A stretch of DNA of 64,000 nt from Eledone cirrhosa (taxonomy: Eukaryota). The DNA lies in the NCBI GenBank assembly GCA_964016885.1, contig OZ024754.1, positions 44,888,001-44,952,000 on the forward strand, given 5' to 3'. Position numbers and translations under genes: made by a program. Of this stretch, positions 397 to 61,968 are shown piece after piece; positions within the stretch are counted from its first letter, which is position 1; every line of letters begins with the position of its first letter. The notes beneath the pieces were generated by a model. The model ran no database searches and was not told the origin of the DNA. It was given only the letters and a program-made list of their open reading frames with translations.

Positions 397-30869
<30,473 letters not shown>

Positions 30870-36657: not shown

Positions 36658-36729
36658 TCCCAAGTGGTCTAGTGGTTAGGATTCCGCGCTCTCACCGCGG
36701 CGGCCGGGGTTCGATTCCCCGCTTGGGAA
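36658..36729 (+). tRNA. tRNA-Glu(CTC)
   Basis: 72-nt cloverleaf: acceptor TCCCAAG/CTTGGGA, anticodon arm CCGCG-CTCTCAC-CGCGG, T arm CGGGG-TTCGATT-CCCCG, A and B boxes, TTTT terminator just downstream. Confidence 0.96.
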
Positions 36730-37916: not shown

Positions 37917-37988
37917 TCCCAAGTGGTCTAGTGGTTAGGATTCCGCGCTCTCACCGCGGCGGCCGGGGTTCGATTCCCCGCTTGGGAA
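37917..37988 (+). tRNA. tRNA-Glu(CTC), identical second copy
   Basis: Identical to 36658-36729, with the same short flanks (TCAGCT 5', AYAGCTATTTTG 3'). Confidence 0.96.
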
Positions 37989-38477: not shown

Positions 38478-39361
38478 TTTGGTTCCTTTGTGTTCGGACC
38501 TGGTGTACATGAGAGATGGGGAGGGCGGGGGACACGGAAGCGATGACAGTGGAGGTTTGGTTCTTCTGTGTTCGGACCTGGTGTACATGAGAGATAAGGA
38601 GGGCGGGGGACACGGAAGTGATGACAGTGGGGGTTTGGTTCTTCTGTGTTCGGACCTGGTGTACATGAGAGATAAGGAGGGCGGGGTACACGGAAGTGAT
38701 GACAGTGGGGGTTTGGTTCTTCTGTGTTCGGACCTGGTGTACATGAGAGATATGGAGGGCGGGGGACACGGAAGTGATGACAGTGGGGGTTTGGTTCCTC
38801 TGTGTTCGGACCTGGTGTACATGAGAGATGGGAGGGCGGAGGACATGGAAGCGATGACAGTGGGAGTTTGGTTCCTTTGTGTTCGGACCTGGTGTACATG
38901 AGAGATGGGAGGGCGGGGACACGGAAGTGATGACAGTGGGGGTTTGGTTCCTCTGTGTTCGGACCTGGTGTACATGAGAGATGGGAGGGCGGGGGACATG
39001 GAAGTGATGACAGTGGGGGTTTGGTTCCTCTGTGTTCGGACCTGGTGTACATGAGAGATGGGAGGGCGGGGGACACGGAAGTGATGACAGTGGGGGTTTG
39101 GTTCCTCTGTGTTCGGACCTGGTGTACATGAGAGATGGGAGGGCGGGGGACACGGAAGTGATGACAGTGGGGGTTTGGTTCCTCTGTGTTCGGACCTGGT
39201 GTACATGAGAGATGGGAGGGCGGGGGACACGGAAGTGATGACAGTGGGGGTTTGGTTCCTCTGTGTTCGGACCTGGTGTACATGAGAGATGGGAGGGCGG
39301 GGGACACGGAAGTGATGACAGTGGGGGTTTGGTTCCTCTGTGTTCGGACCTGGTGTACATG
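38478..39361. repeat. GC-rich 77-78-bp minisatellite, ~11.5 copies
   Basis: Unit GGTTCCTCTGTGTTCGGACCTGGTGTACATGAGAGATGGGAGGGCGGGGGACACGGAAGTGATGACAGTGGGGGTTT. Confidence 0.95.
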
Positions 39362-41348
39362 TGTGTGTGATTTTACACTACCGACATTTTCATTTCCACA
39401 ATTATGCTGAATATTATTGTAGACATAAAATATTTTAGTTTATTATTCACTCTAAAGAAAACAAAAAGGGATTACGACAAACAGTGTCAGCTATAAAGAA
39501 AATTTAAGGGAAAACCTAGTTGGACAGATTTGGAAAATCTTTTTTTTTTTTTACTTATTTTAATACTAAGTTTGCCCCCCCCCCCCCTGACATTTTTGGA
39601 AATATTTAATCATTGAGCTAATAATTACTTCTCCTCACGACGGGTGTAATTTCAGTTAATTTAAATTTCTCGGCTCAGTACATTATATAAATTAGTACCG
39701 ACCTTACCTGTGTGTGTGTGTGTGTGTGTGTGAGTGTCTGAGTGTGAGTGTGTATGTATATGTGTGTATATGTGAGTCAGCTGGCTCACTGCCTGCTTGT
39801 TAGTTATATTACTTAGTAATCAACTTTGAAGACAGGTAAATGGAAAGGTAAGCGTGCTGACTCATTTGATATTTAGTGACTTGTGGTGGTGGTTGTAGTG
39901 TAGTGGTGGTAGTAGTGTAGTGGTGGTAGTAGTAGTGTAGTGGTTGTAGTATAGTGGTGGTGGTAGTTGTAGTATAGTGGTGGTAGTAGTGGTGGCGGTG
40001 GTGGTTATGTAGTGGTGGTGGTGGTGGTATGGTGGTAGTAGTAATGGTGATAGTAGTAGTGGTGTGGTGGTAGTAGTAGTGTTGGTGGTGGTAGTAGTAG
40101 TGTAATGGTGGTAGTAGTAGTTGTTATTACTGTTGTTGTTTCTGTTGTTATTACTGTAGTTAATTAATTAGTTAATTTATGGTAGTAGTAGTAGTAGTGA
40201 TGGTGGTGGTAGCGGTGGTATTGGTGGTAGTAGTGGTGGTATTGGTGGAAGTGATAGTTGTGTGTGTGTGGATGGTGGTGATTGTGAGGGGGTATTGGTA
40301 TTCCTGTTATTGCTGTTGCTGTTGCTGTTGCTGTTAGTGGTGGTGGTGGTGGTGGTGTTAGTGGAGATAGTTTGGTTAATGGTTCGGTATAAAGGGGTGA
40401 AGGGGGGGGGGGTGCAGGTAGGTGGTGGTAGTGAGGAAGTTAAGATAATAGCGACAACTATTGACTGTGGGGTGGGGATGGGGTAGATGATACCGGAAGT
40501 AATGACGGGTGGATTAGGTCAAACGTGATTATGAATGAAGCTGATTCACGGTAGCCTTTGGTGGTTATGGTCGTGGTGGTGGTGGTGGTGGTTATGGTGG
40601 TGGTGGTCGTGGCTAGAGTGCTGATGGTGCTGGTACTGGTGGTGGTGTTGGTACTGGTGGTGGTGCTGGTGCTGGTACTGGTAGTGGTGGTGTTGGTACT
40701 TGTGGTGGGGATGGTGGTGGGGTTGGTAAATACATCTTTAGCAATACAAATCTGTGTATACGTGATGCATGGAGGCTTGCCTCTGTGCGCACGCGCGCGT
40801 GAATCTGTACATATGCGTGTGTGTCCGTGTGTGTTCATATGCGTGTGTGCCCGTGTGTGTTCATATGCGTCTGCGCTCGTATACGTGTGTGTCCGTGTGT
40901 GTCCGTGTGTACTCGTATGAGTGTGTACGAGAGTCGACAGAAAAGTTGATAGTCTGACCAAGATACTCTCATGGAATGACCAAATGAGGCTTAAATTTCA
41001 ACATTGTCCCTGGAAAAAAAACAATGCAGTTATTAATAAGAAGAGTTGAAATCAATACATGCAAGATTTCACAGCTCTAGCATCACTCTTTCGCAATCAA
41101 CCTATGAACGTTTCAGCCGACCCTCGTATATTAGAAGACAATGGCTTTATGAAACATCGGGGTCCAAACAAAATTCTTGCTGAAGATTATAAGAAAAACA
41201 CTTCCCTGGACAAGGTATCAGTCTCTCCCCTTTTCTGCCCCGTCCACCTCGGTGGGATTTGAACACAGAACGTAAATTACTGCAACTAAATACCACAAAA
41301 CATTTTGTCCGACATTCTAACGGTTCTGAAAATCGATTGCCCTCCATC

Positions 41349-43325: not shown

Positions 43326-43662
43326 TTCTACTATTGTGTTTCTACTATTAGAGTTCTTACGGGGTCGATAAAATAAAGTACCAGTAATACACTGGGATAA
43401 TTGCTGGCCTTGTGCCAAAAATAGAAACAATTATATTAAAGTTTCAGTCTGAAGGTTTGGACTGTATTGTATTCTTTTGGTGTTAAAGGAGTTTTGGGGA
43501 CTTCTTTTGAATAGGTGCGAACTTCCGCCGGAGGGAAGGATAAGATGTCCCATCTCTGATACAGGATCTCCTTCATTGGTTCCATATCTCTTGTTGGTTT
43601 GTATGATAGGTTCTACATCTTTTTTATGTGTCTGTATTTATAGTTTAAAACGATATACATAT

Positions 43663-44661
43663 ATATATTCCTACGGACTATGTGTAGGCTTCTACATAAC
43701 CTGGACATTATTTTCACAATTTGTAGAAAACTTATAATGAAACGATCGTTTGGAAAGAGAGATGTATTTTAATTATGTCTCATATAAAATAATACAACTG
43801 GCTATCCGCAAAATACGTATAGTTAGCACCCCAAACGTATAATTGGGATTATACTAAGGTATATCCTAATGTTTGTTGAGTGAGACGGAAACCGGTCGTA
43901 GTATTGCTTAAAGCTTTCTCTGTTAATGTATTAAATATTATACTCTTGATTTGGCCAGGGATGAATATTTCCAGATACTTTTTAGGTATGACTTTCCGTA
44001 TTTATTCTTTGTATGTAATATTGATTGTTCTTCCGGTATCTTATCTCTGTTTTTAGCCTAAGAAAATACCTATATGCGTGTATAAATAATACACGCATAT
44101 ATTTATTTTTTTATATCCAATTGAGTTCTTCACGCATGGTTAAAATTATTGAAAGAATTAATTGACCCGCGTGCATATTATTTTATTCTTTTATGTTTTG
44201 CGATGCTCTCCCCTTTCCGCTTGAAGGCAGTGTCAGATTTCTCATTGAGAGACTGCTGGAATTTCAAATTTGGCGGTCATTCTAGCACGGAAGGGTACCA
44301 TCGCTGAACATTAATATCGGTAAGGTTTTTTTTTTATATCGATATTTGTCGGACATCCACTGATGATTTATAAGTGCCCACCTACATATATTCCTACGGA
44401 CTATGTGTAGGCTTCTACATAACCTGGACATTATTTTCACAATTTGTAGAAAACTTATAATGAAACGATCGTTTGGAAAGAGAGATGTATTTTAATTATG
44501 TCTCATATAAAATAATACAACTGGCTATCCGCAAAATACGTATAGTTAGCACCCCAAACGTATAATTGGGATTATACTAAGGTATATCCTAATGTTTGTT
44601 GAGTGAGACGGAAGCCGGTCGGAGTATTGCTTAAAGCTTTCTCTGTTAATGTATTAAATAT
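43663..44661 (+). mobile_element. Partial-tandem (about 1.4 x 723 bp) hammerhead-bearing element, retrozyme/PLE-like (family C)
   Basis: Near-identical direct repeat 43663-43938 / ~44386-44661; GAAACGATCG at 43739 and 44462; ends in (TA)n; a diverged 3' end recurs at ~45885-45975. Confidence 0.65.
44356..44477 (+). ncRNA. Type I hammerhead ribozyme motif (family C) with minimal palindromic stem III and enlarged stem II
   Basis: tcca-CTGATGA-t-ttataagt[~77 nt]acttataa-t-GAAA-C-GATC-G-TT/tgga. Confidence 0.75.
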
Positions 44662-45573
44662 ATATATATATAGTAATAATAATAAATTTGAAGACTAAAA
44701 TCCAAAGAGGGCTCAATAAGGATAAATATATATCAAATATATAAGAACCGTAGAGCAAATATTTATTAATCTGTTATTTTAATAAATATATATATATGTT
44801 TTGGTTGACGTCGTCTCCGAACATTTTTGTTTTTACATGTAGGTATGTGTGTGCTCTTGTTATATACGTATTTATTTATTCTGGCAATATTACACAAATA
44901 TGACCCTCCCCAAGTATAACAATATTTATTTATTTATATACATTTATTTAATTATTTATTTATTTGTATATACGCACACACACACACACATATTTATATG
45001 CGCGTGGTTTTGTATACCTATGGCAAGTGTTTTCGCGTATGCTTGTGTATGTACGATTTTGCATGCGTGTATGTATTTATTTATTTTCTATTACCTCTGT
45101 ATTGTATTTTATTTACTTTATTCTTAACTCTGAAGCGGAGATTCATTCGGTTTCTTAGTTAGAATTTTAGTCTACGACTTCAGTTATACCATTTACGTGG
45201 TTTTGTCTTTGCGTGCAATTGTTCTCCACGCCCCACATATGACGTATTATCTTCGTTTTTTCTGTTCATTGCCAGACAACGTCTCTATGAACCACCTAAG
45301 AGAACATTAGTCTACGACTTCTTTTATACCATAAACGTGGTTCTGTCTTTGCGCGTAATTGGTTTTCACCGCTCCAAATAATTGTTTCTACTTTAGGCAC
45401 AAGGCCAGCAATTACCCAGTGCATTACCGCTCCAAATAATGACGTATTATATTCGTTTTTTCCCGTTCTTTGCCAGGGAATGTCTTCACGAACCAAAGTA
45501 TCGTCTTCCTGTCTTCCTCCGGTTGCAACGTTTTTTGAAATATCCACTTCTGCGTTTACAGTTTGATTTTGTT

Positions 45574-45624
45574 AGTTTCAGAAGATCCCGTTAAGGGTGA
45601 AAGCAGCGATTCTTTGCTTAAACT
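45574..45624 (+). ncRNA. Hammerhead ribozyme-like motif (family D) with a U4A core substitution
   Basis: agttt-CAGAAGA-t-ccc[gttaa]ggg-t-GAAA-gca[gcgattctt]tgc-TT/aaact: all three stems are perfect, with one core mismatch. Confidence 0.6.
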
Positions 45625-45664
45625 TTAATCTGTTATTTTAATATATATATATATATATATATAT

Positions 45665-45830
45665 AACTAAGGAATTGTGGTAAGGAACCAGATGGACCAT
45701 AACACACCAGAGTACTCAATACTTAGGGTAGTAGAGTGGGAAATAGGAAAAAGTATGACCCCGACGGCAGAGCTCAAGCCGTTTCGACGGCTATTTCTGG
45801 ACTAGTCCAGAAATAGCCGTCGAAACGGCT
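45665..45830 (-). mobile_element. Palindromic TA-flanked insert (family B), copy 1
   Basis: Perfect 54-bp palindrome 45777-45830 centred on GGACTAGTCC plus a ~110-nt tail shared with 58227-58430 and 58547-58700. Confidence 0.65.
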
Positions 45831-45831
45831 A

Positions 45832-45887
<56 letters not shown>

Positions 45888-45998
45888 CATAATACTTAAG
45901 TATATCCTAATGTTTGTTGAGTGAGATGGAGTTAGTCGGAGTATCGCTTAAGGCTTTCTCTGTTTATGTATTGTATATATATATATATATGTATCTAT

Positions 45999-46302: not shown

Positions 46303-46691
46303 TGTATGTATATACACACACACATATATATAATATATATATATGCTGTTTGTGTGAGAGACAGCGACTGTGTGTATATGTATGAGAGAGAGAGAAGGAG
46401 GAATAGATTGTGTGTAGGTTGGTGTATGAGAGGGGGGGGGTAGGTTGGTGTATGAGAGAGAGGAGCGAGTAGGTGGGTGTATGAGAGAGAGAGAGAGAGA
46501 GAGGAGGGGGAGTAGGAGGGGGTATGAGAAGCATAAAAAACAGAAATACAATAAACACAGTTTTAGGTTTGTTTTTATAGTTGTTCTGTTTCATTGAGAA
46601 TTGTAGGAAGAAAAATGAGGTAAAATGAAATAGTTTACCTGGCGTTGTTGGTGAGTCATAGAGACATACACAGCTGTTGGTTGGACTGTGA

Positions 46692-47161
46692 GACAGGGCC
46701 TGTGTGGGGGTCTAGGGGGTGTAGAGTAGACAGGGTCTGGATGTGTGGGCGTCTAGGGTGTGTAGAGTAGACAGGGTCTGGATCTGTGGGCGTCTCGGGT
46801 GTGTAGAGTAGACAGGGCTTGGATGTGTGGGGGACTAGGGTGTGTAGAGTAGACAGGGCCTGGATGTGTGGGGGTCTAGGGTGTGTAGAGTAGACAGGGC
46901 CTGGATGTGTGGGGGTCTAGGGTGTGTAGAGTAGACAGGGCCTGGATCTGTGGGGGTCTAGGGTGTGTAGAGTAGACAGGGCCTGGATGTGTGGGGGTCT
47001 AGGGTGTGTAGAGTAGACAGGGCCTGGATCTGTGGGGGTCTAGGGTGTGTAGAGTAGACAGGGTCTGGATGTGTGGGGGACTAGGGTGTGTAGAGTAGAC
47101 AGGGCCTGGATGTGTAGGGGTCTAGGGTGTGTAGAGTAGACAGGGTCTGGATGTGTGGGGG
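46692..47161. repeat. G-rich 41-bp minisatellite, ~11 copies
   Basis: Unit AGGGCCTGGATGTGTGGGGGTCTAGGGTGTGTAGAGTAGAC. Confidence 0.95.
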
Positions 47162-48661
47162 AAAGACTCGCGGGCCGCAGGTTGCCCTTGACTGGTAGTG
47201 TATGTCTATGTGTGTGTGTGTATGTTTGTGTGTATATGTGTGTGTGTATGTATGTGTATGTTTGTGTGTGTATATGTTTGTGTACACCCATATACACAGT
47301 TGTCTACATGGTACACCCATATACACATATACTGTCATACCCACATATACCCAATCACACGCACACACATACTTAACCTCACACACACATGTACATATAT
47401 ACCTACATATTTATCTACATACATACATGAATACATACATGAATACATACATATCTACATATATATTTAACAACATACATACTTATATACATACATATTT
47501 ATCTACATACATACATGAATACATACATGAATACATACATATCTACATATATATTTAACAACATACATACATATATACCTACATATTTATCTACATACAT
47601 ACATGAATACATACATGAATACATACATATCTACATATATATTTAACAACATACATACTTATATACATACATTCATACACACATATATACATACCTACAT
47701 ATATTCAGATGTATGTATTCATGAATACATACATTTTTACCAACACATACATTCATACCTACATACAAACATACACGTATATCTATGCATACATACATAT
47801 ATATATACTTACATACATACATACATACGTACATATATATATATACATACATACTTACATACATTCATACATATATACATACATACATACATACGTACAT
47901 ACATGGTGGTGGCTGCCAACTCGTTTTCGAGTACGGCCACTACTTTAAATCCATGTAGGAGAACCCCTACCGATGCGCTGAACGTATATACATACATACT
48001 TACACACATACATACATACATACTTACATACATACATACATATATACATACATACATACTTACATACATACATATATATATATACATACATACTTATATA
48101 CATACATATATACATACATACATCATATATACATACATACTTACATACATATATATATATACATACATACACACACAGTCATTCAGAAATACAAACACAA
48201 ATGCGTTTCTTTCTGTTGTGTGTCACACACAGGTAGCGAATTAAATTGATTGATTTGGACAGGTTATGAAAAGTTTAGAAATGTTCGCTGTGACATTAAC
48301 CTTCTCACCTTCCTTTCCTCTCTCCAGGTCACCTTCTATTGATTCACAATATACGTGAAATCTTTATGTACTGTCAGCAAGGTACCGGGGAATCTCTATA
48401 GGCTAAATCCCCTCCCCCCATAGCCTGCGGGAGATTAAGGTAAGGTGAGGTCTGTGACTTGGTATAGGAGACCTTTGTGTAGGGTTTGTCGCACTTGGTG
48501 GTGAATTGATGGTCGTTTGTGTTTTTATTTCTGCCCCCCATCGTTCTCTCTGTTTTCTTTTTTTTTCTTCCTCTCTGAGGGTATTACGTGGCCGTAAGGG
48601 CCTCGGGTGGCCCCAAAAGTTTGAGAACCTCTGCTCTACAAACACACACACACATTATATG

Positions 48662-54906: not shown

Positions 54907-55377
54907 CTAAAACACACAGAAAAACTTTTTCCATCCCTTTTTCCTTTTATGAGGTGGTACATCTGGGTTGATCTTTTTTAATTTCGATTTGCCCGAAGGC
55001 ACATTAGGTAGAGTCGGTTTACCAAGGTTCAAAGCTGAAATGATTGCACTGTCAAAAACCTCTTTCAGGTTCTTTTGTGTCAGCGCCGAGCACTCGATGT
55101 ACAAAGAGGCCCCAATTTGACAGGCGAGGCGATGGGCGTCAGTTTCCGCAATTGGGGCCTCTTTGTAGCGAGCCAGTTCAATGAGGATTTTCACATCATT
55201 CCTGAGATCGCACTGAGTACCGATTAAGATGATAGGAGTTTTAGGAGAATGTTTTCGCACCTCTGGTAACCATTTGTCAAGAATGTTGTGGAAGGATGAA
55301 GGACAGACCACGCTGAAGCAAAGCAGAAAGACATCTGTGTTTGGGTAACAGAGAGGACGCAGCGAATCAAAATCGTC
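54907..55377 (-). CDS. RHOU: RhoU/RhoV (Wrch1/Chp)-family atypical Rho GTPase, last coding exon
   Basis: AG acceptor at 55379-55378; 157 codons DDFDSLRPLCYPNTDVFLLCFSVV...IILIGTQCDLR...YIECSALTQKNLKEVFDSAI...KKGWKKFFCVF*. The TQxD G4 variant and WKKFFCxx tail are diagnostic of RhoU/V. Confidence 0.93.
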   Translation of the reverse strand, partial: DDFDSLRPLCYPNTDVFLLCFSVVCPSSFHNILDKWLPEVRKHSPKTPIILIGTQCDLRNDVKILIELARYKEAPIAETDAHRLACQIGASLYIECSALTQKNLKEVFDSAIISALNLGKPTLPNVPSGKSKLKKINPDVPPHKRKKGWKKFFCVF

Positions 55378-58226: not shown

Positions 58227-58231
<5 letters not shown>

Positions 58232-58428
58232 AACAAGTATGACCCGACGGCAGAGCTCAAGCCGTTTCGGCGGCTAATTCTGGACTGAATTCAGTCCAGA
58301 ATTAGCCGTCGAAACAGCTTGAGCTCTGCCGTCGTGGTCATACTTGTTCCTATTACCCACTCTACTACCCCAAGTATTGAGTACTTTGGTGCGTTATGGT
58401 CCATCTGGTTCCTTACCACATTTGCTTC

Positions 58429-58430
<2 letters not shown>
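58227..58430 (+). mobile_element. Family B insert, copy 2
   Basis: ~60-bp near-perfect arms centred on GAATTC (58287-58292), then the family tail; TA flanks. Confidence 0.65.
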
Positions 58431-58487
<57 letters not shown>

Positions 58488-58546
58488 GTATATATATATA
58501 TATATGTGTGTGTGTGTTTGTGTGTTTGTTTATACATATATATATA

Positions 58547-58700
58547 TAGGAAAAAGTAAGACCCCGACGGCAGAGCTCAAGCCGTATCGAGGGCTATTTC
58601 TGGACTAGTCCAGAAAGATTACCCACTCTACTACCCTAAGTATTGAGTACTCTGGTGCGTTATGGTCCATCTGGTTCCTTACCACAATTCCTTCGTTATA
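58547..58700 (+). mobile_element. Family B insert, copy 3 with most of the right arm deleted
   Basis: Left arm and centre are retained and join directly to the tail at ~58620. Confidence 0.6.
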
Positions 58701-58701
58701 T

Positions 58702-58752
<51 letters not shown>

Positions 58753-59258: not shown

Positions 59259-59449
59259 TAATAAAAACAATGAATAAAAACAAAGAAACAGTTCCTTATA
59301 TTAAAAAATTCATCATTTTACGATCGTTTCTAGGATATATATATGTGTGTTGGTGTGTATATCATATAGATCTATGTAAAAATTTTACAAACTATCAGGA
59401 AATATACATACCTACACATATATATGCTGTCTTCAGAAATAAAAAATAA

Positions 59450-61625: not shown

Positions 61626-61968
<343 letters not shown>

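What the first reader, a model, noticed from the sequence alone, without database searches (positions are those of the whole stretch)
43663..44661. 723-bp partial tandem with a dimer-type hammerhead: candidate circular-RNA retrozyme
Seen: ~276-bp direct repeats 723 bp apart and no credible ORF in the unit. The second copy has a complete hammerhead (44356-44477, predicted cut after 44473, GUU). The first copy is 5'-truncated and keeps only GAAACGATCGTT. Stem III is the self-complementary ACGATCGT. Established: minimal hammerheads with palindromic stem III cleave as dimers, and more-than-one-unit insertions are expected from reverse transcription of circular or tandem templates. Inference: a ~723-nt monomer/circRNA, larger than the few-hundred-nt units typical of animal non-LTR retrozymes.
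Basis: partly seen in the sequence, partly recalled or inferred. Interest (0 to 1): 0.8.

Follow-up and report, generated by a model that had tools for sequence, protein, structure and literature searches.

The report
Long-armed hammerhead in Penelope-dependent retrozyme
This is a 1.4-unit insertion of a multi-copy, protein-free 723-base repeat carrying a hammerhead motif (predicted to cut its own RNA) with an unusually large two-hairpin arm; it was likely pasted into a TA microsatellite by a Penelope-type retrotransposon enzyme, possibly from a circular RNA, which makes it a variant of a known kind of element.

Summary
Confirmed: two 276-bp repeats (274/276 identical) lie 723 bp apart between (TA)n tracts; no ORF; a type I hammerhead motif at 44356-44477 (0 of 200 shuffles). 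Reads show a diverged multi-copy family in four organisms, so it is not a local duplication. No listed variant falls in the core, and variants in stem II keep or repair pairs. Three corrections. (1) The motif is not minimal: stem II carries a 77-nt two-hairpin domain and Rfam misses it. (2) Its U·U junction, GUU site and TA target match Hydra-clade Penelope hammerheads. (3) Copy 1 lacks the catalytic strand, so a cis dimer would cut at 43750, not 44473; this locus alone probably cannot release a monomer. The insertion crosses the predicted cut site twice, so the template was a circle or an uncut tandem RNA. No RNA run was available to decide. 723 nt lies within published retrozyme sizes (51-972 bp), and the retrozyme-Penelope link is in print. 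The scan has already reported similar long-armed families on other DNA of this genome and in another genome, though not this sequence. Verdict: new variant of a known kind; cleavage and circles untested.

The parts
43644..43668 (.). 5' flank: AT-rich, short degenerate (TA)n tract at the 5'-truncation junction
   Evidence: sequence
43663..43938 (+). Repeat copy 1 (pseudo-LTR-like, 5'-truncated inside the stem II domain); keeps the 3' half of the hammerhead
   Evidence: 274/276 identical to copy 2
43739..43754 (+). Half-hammerhead of copy 1: GAAA, palindrome 43742-43749, predicted cut 43750|43751, 3' strand of stem I
   Evidence: the cut is predicted
43939..44355 (+). Non-coding body of the 723-bp unit, predicted to be structured (z -4.6, 0 of 100 shuffles); repeated in the genome with 8-15% differences in listed contigs
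44356..44477 (+). Complete type I hammerhead motif: 4-bp stem I, CUGAUGA, U·U junction, 8-bp stem II base, GAAA, palindromic stem III, GUU site (cut predicted 44473|44474)
44376..44452 (+). 77-nt domain inside stem II: hairpin A 44381-44411 and hairpin B 44413-44451 on a three-way junction
   Evidence: pair probabilities 0.79-1.0; pair-keeping family variants
44386..44661 (+). Repeat copy 2; its 3' end lies 188 nt downstream of the predicted cut and is the inferred start of reverse transcription
   Evidence: the same end in a third fragment; the RT start is inferred
44659..44671 (.). 3' (TA)n tract, the inferred target
   Evidence: sequence
45878..45978 (+). Third, diverged (85%) 5'-truncated fragment of the family, ending within a few bases of the same 3' end, (TA)n on both sides

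Best explanation
This is a 1.4-unit insertion of a multi-copy 723-base non-coding repeat with a long-armed hammerhead motif, likely written into a TA microsatellite by the enzyme of a Hydra-type Penelope-like retrotransposon from an RNA that is predicted to cut itself in pairs and likely closes into a circle. Steps: (1) Shown: repeated family, no ORF, hammerhead motif, TA flanks, one shared 3' end, variable 5' truncation. (2) Inferred: tandem copies elsewhere in the genome are transcribed, and neighbouring palindromic stems III pair to form double hammerheads that release 723-nt monomers. (3) Inferred, about even odds: monomers are ligated into circles, in which the lone motif is predicted to fold into an inactive form. 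(4) Inferred: a GIY-YIG/RT protein supplied in trans nicks (TA)n DNA, starts cDNA at an internal site 188 nt downstream of the cut, and here copied 999 nt, crossing the cut site twice before stopping. (5) Inferred: this particular insertion has only one catalytic strand, so it is probably an end product rather than a source of monomers. I put the broad reading (non-autonomous Penelope-dependent element) at about 0.85, and the version with a circular template at about 0.5.
For: Family: flank depth 7.5 against 3,391-23,857 in the body and up to 82,106 in the repeat in run X1; raw reads of X8 cover the unit but not the unique 5' flank (the tool warns depth is not copy number). 2,122 reads of X9 were laid, 1,258 of them under 90% alike, plus contigs from organisms B, C and D. 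3'-biased depth and a third fragment with the same 3' end fit 5'-truncating reverse transcription. Selection on the fold: 0 of 36 listed variable positions fall in the 45 positions of core and stems, 12 fall in the 77-nt domain (P about 0.004 if uniform; only 40 of 75 rows were shown). Variants turn U·G into U-A, U·C into U-A and G·A into G-C, and C-G into A-U (52% of reads on one side; 15% substitution plus 34% inserted T on the other; unphased). An organism B contig matches 44330-44557 with 3 differences, none in the core. 199 reads of a subfamily diverge exactly at the first base of stem I. Hydra link: U·U junction in 14 of 25 and GUU site in 10 of 25 Hydra families, nearly all targeting (TA)n (PMC8557442 Files S1, S2); two more short-armed U·U hammerhead motifs lie at TA-flanked ends in this window. 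U·U is compatible with cleavage: axolotl HHR_Amex2 cuts 22% in 1 h as a monomer and better as a dimer (PMC7229834). Unit-length template: both repeats share an allele at 43716/44439 that 349 of 359 X9 reads lack. Dimer dependence: the active monomer lies 6.4 kcal/mol above a fold that sequesters the core (p 0.61-0.95), while the two palindromes pair with p 0.99 in the locus transcript. Internal RT initiation and AT-rich cutting are shown for an anole Penelope-like protein (PMC11167929).
Against: No RNA evidence of any kind. No autonomous partner was found: no genome is held, no Penelope RT or GIY-YIG motif in the window, and three short terminal words gave 0 hits in the Craig supplement. (TA)n is also the target of Naiad and other clades, and Hydra stems III are 3-4 bp with 1-3 nt loops, not this palindrome. 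Even the cis double hammerhead is +7.1 kcal/mol above the free ensemble, and its 4-bp stem I has p near 0. For the anole element, uncut RNA is the main substrate and no reads end at the cut. 8 of 9 frog retrozyme dimers did not cleave in vitro. That the tandem junction 43938|43939 is shared by other copies is inferred from depth only; no joint row shows it. One of the two differences between the repeats (43891) sits at a site polymorphic in the family (62% G), which fits two templates as well as a new mutation. Gene conversion could also explain the shared alleles.
Confidence: 0.5

Rival explanations
1. Same non-autonomous Penelope-dependent element, but the template is an uncut linear tandem transcript. 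The hammerhead only trims the 5' end, or acts mainly as a fold that the RT protein binds, and no circle is needed.
For: The anole element uses uncut RNA, and ribozyme mutants insert normally in vitro. Crossing the cut site twice is equally explained. In a partial tandem the cis dimer is predicted to cut only the upstream site, which would trim a 5' end. Metazoan Penelope hammerheads cleave poorly.
Against: Alleles shared by both repeats and rare in the family point to recent copying from one unit. The core looks conserved in a non-coding family. Circles are documented for coral, mussel and axolotl retrozymes.
Confidence: 0.33
2. Two stacked 5'-truncated ends of a longer protein-coding Penelope-like element; the 723-bp unit is only its 3' UTR plus pseudo-LTR and has no life of its own.
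For: Penelope-like elements insert into or next to earlier copies (review PMC6765202). Depth is far higher at the 3' end. Related subfamilies share only parts of the repeat, for example 44535-44607.
Against: There is no TA tract between copy 1 and the body. Same-strand read depth carries across the junction (501 at 43899, 193 at 43959, 167 at 43979, 101 at 43985) and steps down about one read length from the fragment end at 43841; all 193 reads at 43959 differ from this locus, so they come from other loci. Two independent insertions would not be expected to share rare alleles.
Confidence: 0.11
3. A local tandem duplication of an old repeat fragment, with a dead or chance hammerhead.
For: The repeats are 99.3% identical. 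G10.1-C11.1 is absent. The predicted ground state is inactive. Rfam has no hit.
Against: 0 of 200 shuffles give the motif. Family variation avoids the core and keeps pairs. U·U is a recurrent Hydra-clade feature. The 3' end matches that of an independent fragment.
Confidence: 0.06

Closest known systems
Metazoan non-LTR retrozymes (Cervera and de la Pena 2020, PMC7229834, parts 2-3 of 6 read; Li, Clavereau and Pollet, bioRxiv 10.64898/2026.07.22.740005, parts 1-3 of 5 read)
   Same: Non-coding, low GC (34%), type I hammerhead, head-to-tail repeat, predicted self-paired RNA, multi-copy; U·U at the base of helix II with a 2-bp helix III as in axolotl HHR_Amex2; size inside 51-972 bp.
   Different: Only one complete hammerhead at this locus; larger than the 170-400 nt circles shown by northern blot; 77-nt branched domain in stem II; no RNA shown.
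Hydra-clade C-terminal EN+ Penelope-like elements and their hammerheads (Craig et al. 2021, PMC8557442; passages, section 11, File S1 Hydra sheet and File S2 read)
   Same: U·U junction (14 of 25 families), GUU site (10 of 25), short stem I, motif near the 3' end, (TA)n target, pseudo-LTR partial tandem.
   Different: No ORF. Their stem II is 3-7 bp with a 3-10 nt loop (longest loop 2 in the whole file 35 nt), here 8 bp plus 77 nt. Stem III here is a full 8-nt palindrome. No sequence match was shown.
Minimal hammerheads of metazoan Penelope-like elements (Cervera and de la Pena 2014, PMC4209133, parts 1-2 of 4 read)
   Same: Helix I of 4-5 bp, helix II of 7-8 bp, palindromic helix III, predicted dimer dependence.
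   Different: Lacks the conserved G10.1-C11.1 pair; the long domain would escape short-spacer descriptors (7-17 nt in PMC8557442).
Non-autonomous Chlamys elements such as MRC1 (PMC8557442, passage read)
   Same: Non-coding Penelope derivatives that form pseudo-LTRs and head-to-tail insertions.
   Different: Green alga; most Chlamys lack canonical hammerheads.
Poseidon element of Anolis carolinensis (Frangieh et al. 2024, PMC11167929, parts 1-2 of 4 read)
   Same: Model for AT-rich cutting and RT initiation downstream of the hammerhead cut.
   Different: Autonomous; initiates about 85-92 nt after the cut (my subtraction from their numbers), against 188 nt inferred here.

Membership tests
Type I hammerhead ribozyme | CUGANGA, GAAA and NUH core in type I order with stems I-III | tested here: met
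Type I hammerhead ribozyme | G10.1-C11.1 pair at the base of stem II | tested here: not met
   U·U here and in an organism B contig; no T>G place at 15% or more in X9. Natural precedents exist, so this is a usual, not an absolute, feature.
Type I hammerhead ribozyme | Match to an Rfam hammerhead model | tested here: not met
Type I hammerhead ribozyme | Loop I-loop II tertiary contact | tested here: inconclusive
   only short complementary words were found; no covariation data
Type I hammerhead ribozyme | Self-cleavage | not testable with these tools
   needs an in vitro assay
Metazoan non-LTR retrozyme | Non-coding, multi-copy, GC below 50% | tested here: met
Metazoan non-LTR retrozyme | [quoted passage not shown] | tested here: not met
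   one complete and one half motif at this locus; other loci could not be read. This copy is therefore not filed as an active retrozyme.
Metazoan non-LTR retrozyme | Highly self-paired monomer | tested here: met
   circular fold z -4.7, 0 of 60 shuffles; 67% paired against 61% in shuffles
Metazoan non-LTR retrozyme | Expressed as linear and circular monomer RNA | not testable with these tools
   no RNA holder listed
Hydra-clade Penelope-like element | ORF with RT and C-terminal GIY-YIG endonuclease | tested here: not met
   so at most a non-autonomous dependant
Hydra-clade Penelope-like element | Partial tandem forming pseudo-LTRs, hammerhead near the 3' end, (TA)n target | tested here: met
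Hydra-clade Penelope-like element | Inverted 5'-truncated arm or 30-40 bp tail (optional features) | tested here: inconclusive
   no inverted arm at this locus; reads were cut at the terminal TA repeat, so end variants were not seen
Hydra-clade Penelope-like element | Terminal sequence similarity to an autonomous partner | tested here: inconclusive
   0 hits for four short exact words in the Craig supplement; no genome to search

The most novel reading that the evidence does not exclude
The two-hairpin domain in stem II is a selected module, such as a loading site for the Penelope RT or a tertiary brace. It works with a built-in switch in which the palindromic stem III locks the catalytic strand in monomers and circles and frees it only on dimerisation. 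The element would then be a 723-nt animal circular RNA replicon copied round more than once by a Hydra-type reverse transcriptase, with a hammerhead architecture that standard searches miss.
Probability: 0.22. Interest if true: 0.65.

Novelty: new variant of a known kind. Interest (0 to 1): 0.35.

Why it matters
How Penelope-like elements make their more-than-unit insertions, and what their hammerheads are for, is still open: a circular template was proposed in 2014, while the one reconstituted system uses uncut RNA. A young, short, non-coding family with a defined 3' end is a convenient substrate to test this. The long branched stem II also shows a class of hammerheads that Rfam and short-spacer descriptors miss. 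But the element type, its Penelope dependence and its size range are in print, this copy is probably not a source of monomers, and no activity is shown.

Tried and rejected
No genome was held, so copy number, tandem arrays and the autonomous partner could not be searched. Rfam: no hammerhead; only weak miRNA-type hits to an AT-rich hairpin at about 44050-44120. Sequencing runs: no RNA holder listed, which says nothing about expression. Metagenome scans: 0 hits for an exact and for a gapped pattern. Viral contigs: 20 matches to a looser pattern; 0 of 20 had both stem I and stem II of 4 bp or more, so I took them as chance. The second lay was meant to show the tandem junction and the 3' end as loose ends, but the tool cut reads at the terminal TA repeat. 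A second GAAA-palindrome at 43888 has no CUGANGA, and the matching positions vary widely in the family: rejected as a working ribozyme. The same palindrome on the minus strand at 59330 fails the stem tests. One organism B contig stops aligning exactly at 44473 with 7 letters left over: too little to read as a cut-site end. No target-site duplication can be told apart in TA flanks. Searches for a branched stem II in print (octopus and cephalopod terms) listed no paper whose title or abstract describes one. Lunse et al. 2017, the main paper on Penelope hammerhead variants, is not held and was seen only as cited in PMC6765202; supplements of PMC4209133 were not read and those of the bioRxiv preprint are closed, so any of these may show long stems II.

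Full report
Observation. The window is animal DNA rich in microsatellites, with exons of an EML-type WD40 gene and a Ras-family GTPase. Earlier scan notes call the genome octopus-like (not checked by me). Two 276-bp repeats, 43663-43938 and 44386-44661, lie 723 bp apart with two mismatches. The element begins in a short degenerate TA tract and ends in (TA)6; no TA tract separates copy 1 from the body. The longest ATG ORF in the doubled unit is 49 aa. A third fragment, 45878-45978, is 85% alike, ends within a few bases of the same position and is flanked by (TA)n.

The hammerhead. 44356-44477 holds a type I motif: stem I of 4 bp, CUGAUGA, a U·U pair in place of G10.1-C11.1, an 8-bp stem II base, GAAA, the palindrome ACGATCGT and a GUU site. 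A descriptor allowing long spacers finds it once in the window and in 0 of 200 shuffles (written after seeing the motif). Between the strands of stem II lie 77 nt that fold into two hairpins with pair probabilities of 0.79-1.0. Copy 1 starts inside this domain and lacks the 5' stem I strand, CUGAUGA and the 5' stem II strand.

It is a family. No genome was held, so I used public runs. Seven of 10 listed runs hold part of the stretch, from four organisms and four studies, none on record as RNA; the best holders may be the source sample. In X1 the unique 5' flank has depth 7.5, the body 3,391-23,857 and the repeat up to 82,106; X8 raw reads from another study cover body and repeat but not that flank. 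These depths are not copy numbers, but they exclude a single-copy sequence. In X9, 2,122 reads were laid on 44330-44690: 33 at 99% or more, 236 at 95-99, 595 at 90-95, 1,258 below 90. One organism B contig matches 44330-44557 with 3 differences.

Selection on the fold. One search showed 40 of 75 difference rows, at 36 positions. None lies in the 45 positions of core, stem I, stem II base and stem III; 12 lie in the 77-nt domain, 21 downstream and 3 upstream (P about 0.004 under a uniform spread). The 35 hidden rows and the lower depth over the 3' core weaken this. Five of the 12 are in loops. The other seven touch five pairs: U·G to U-A (57%), a U·C mismatch to U-A (60%), G·A to G-C (97%), C-G to A-U (52% on one side; 15% substitution and 34% inserted T on the other; unphased), and the hairpin A closing C-G, which becomes U-A or opens into a larger loop depending on alignment. 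A subfamily of 199 reads departs from the window exactly at the first base of stem I.

Which Penelope clade. Following a lead from earlier scan notes, I read File S2 of Craig et al.. Of 25 Hydra-clade families, 14 have the same U·U junction and 10 the GUU site; nearly all insert in (TA)n; one is from an octopus, though its motif lacks U·U. Their stem II is 3-7 bp with loops of 3-10 nt. A relaxed scan finds two more U·U motifs with short stem II in this window, at 45579-45619 (one core mismatch) and 61868-61906, both just upstream of TA-flanked ends; 25 shuffles gave 2 hits in all and none with a short spacer. The U·U pair does not prevent cleavage: axolotl HHR_Amex2 has it and cuts 22% in an hour as a monomer and much better as a dimer. 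No partner sequence was found, so the Hydra link rests on motif style and target.

Mechanism. As a monomer the motif is predicted to sequester its catalytic strand against the palindrome (p 0.61-0.95), with the active fold 6.4 kcal/mol higher; in a transcript of the whole insertion the two palindromes pair with p 0.99. In the nested double hammerhead, the core of the downstream unit cuts the upstream site. Here that is 43750|43751 (+7.1 kcal/mol over the free ensemble, against +12.4 for a monomer cut at 44473). The second cut needs the core missing from copy 1, so this locus probably cannot release a 723-nt monomer in cis. These energies omit tertiary contacts and proteins. Read backwards from its 3' end, the insertion crosses the cut site after 188 nt, again after 911 nt, and stops 88 nt later. 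A cut linear monomer would need two template jumps; a circle or an uncut tandem RNA needs none. Both repeats carry an allele at 43716/44439 that 349 of 359 X9 reads lack, which points to recent copying from one unit and mildly favours a circle. Against this, the anole Penelope-like protein prefers uncut RNA, 8 of 9 frog retrozyme dimers did not cleave, and one difference between the repeats sits at a family polymorphism. That the tandem junction is a family feature is inferred from same-strand depth across it (501, 193, 167, 101 reads at 43899, 43959, 43979, 43985); one contig crosses it by only 18 letters.

Comparison and novelty. Animal non-LTR retrozymes and their circles are described (PMC7229834), a circular template for Penelope tandems was proposed in PMC4209133, and a 2026 preprint argues that retrozymes are non-autonomous Penelope derivatives with units of 51-972 bp. 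The element works like these. This copy fails that preprint's test for an active retrozyme (two complete motifs) and, lacking an ORF, is not a Hydra element itself. A branched stem II of this size appeared in no title or abstract listed by my searches, but Lunse et al. 2017 was not available and some supplements were not seen. The scan's notes report similar long-armed hammerhead families in this genome and another; look-ups by this sequence found none. Those notes are unchecked leads, not support. Verdict: real feature, new variant of a known kind, interest 0.35.

Noticed in passing
window 45574-45656 (+): Second hammerhead-like motif with a U·U junction, short stem II and one core mismatch (CAGAAGA), just before a (TA)n end; its terminus resembles that of the studied element (77% over 35-40 nt) and recurs at 44766-44797.
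   Followed up: partly
window 61737-61928: Small head-to-head insertion between (TA)n tracts: a 127-bp near-perfect palindrome whose arms end about 65 nt apart, with an intact U·U hammerhead motif at 61863-61911; a second copy lies at 29486-29730. Fits the two-armed footprint in earlier scan notes.
   Followed up: partly
window 44668-44950: A different, very high-depth repeat directly after the element's 3' TA tract (depth up to 1.2 million in X1); reads show an inverted arm at 44769.
   Followed up: no
window 43356-43434: Extremely abundant SINE-like repeat (depth about 1e7 in X1), four near full-length and several partial further copies in the window; resembles cephalopod SINEs from memory only.
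   Followed up: no
window 45660-45830 and 58227-58702: TA-flanked repeat with an internal palindrome and inverted arms, three copies in the window.
   Followed up: no
window 738-26215 (+) and 54910-55377 (-): Exons of an EML-type WD40 gene (Pfam PF23409 on one exon, just under the cut-off) and a Ras-family, Rho-like GTPase exon.
   Followed up: partly
window 36658-36729 and 37917-37988: Two identical tRNA genes 1,259 bp apart, anticodon read by eye as CUC.
   Followed up: no
window 11099-12343 (-): Open frame with a PHD-finger hit whose C-terminal part looks like the end of an RTE-type LINE protein (recalled, not tested).
   Followed up: no
window 38478-39438 and 46621-47243: Tandem arrays of 77-78 bp and 41 bp units.
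   Followed up: no
window 43985-43993 and 44320-44335: Splice-donor-like words in the body of the unit; Penelope elements can carry a 5' UTR intron. Seen by eye only.
   Followed up: no
reads laid on window 44535-44607: A related family shares only this stretch and then continues with other sequence (211 X9 reads; a 229-nt tail in an X4 contig). A place to look for the autonomous partner.
   Followed up: no
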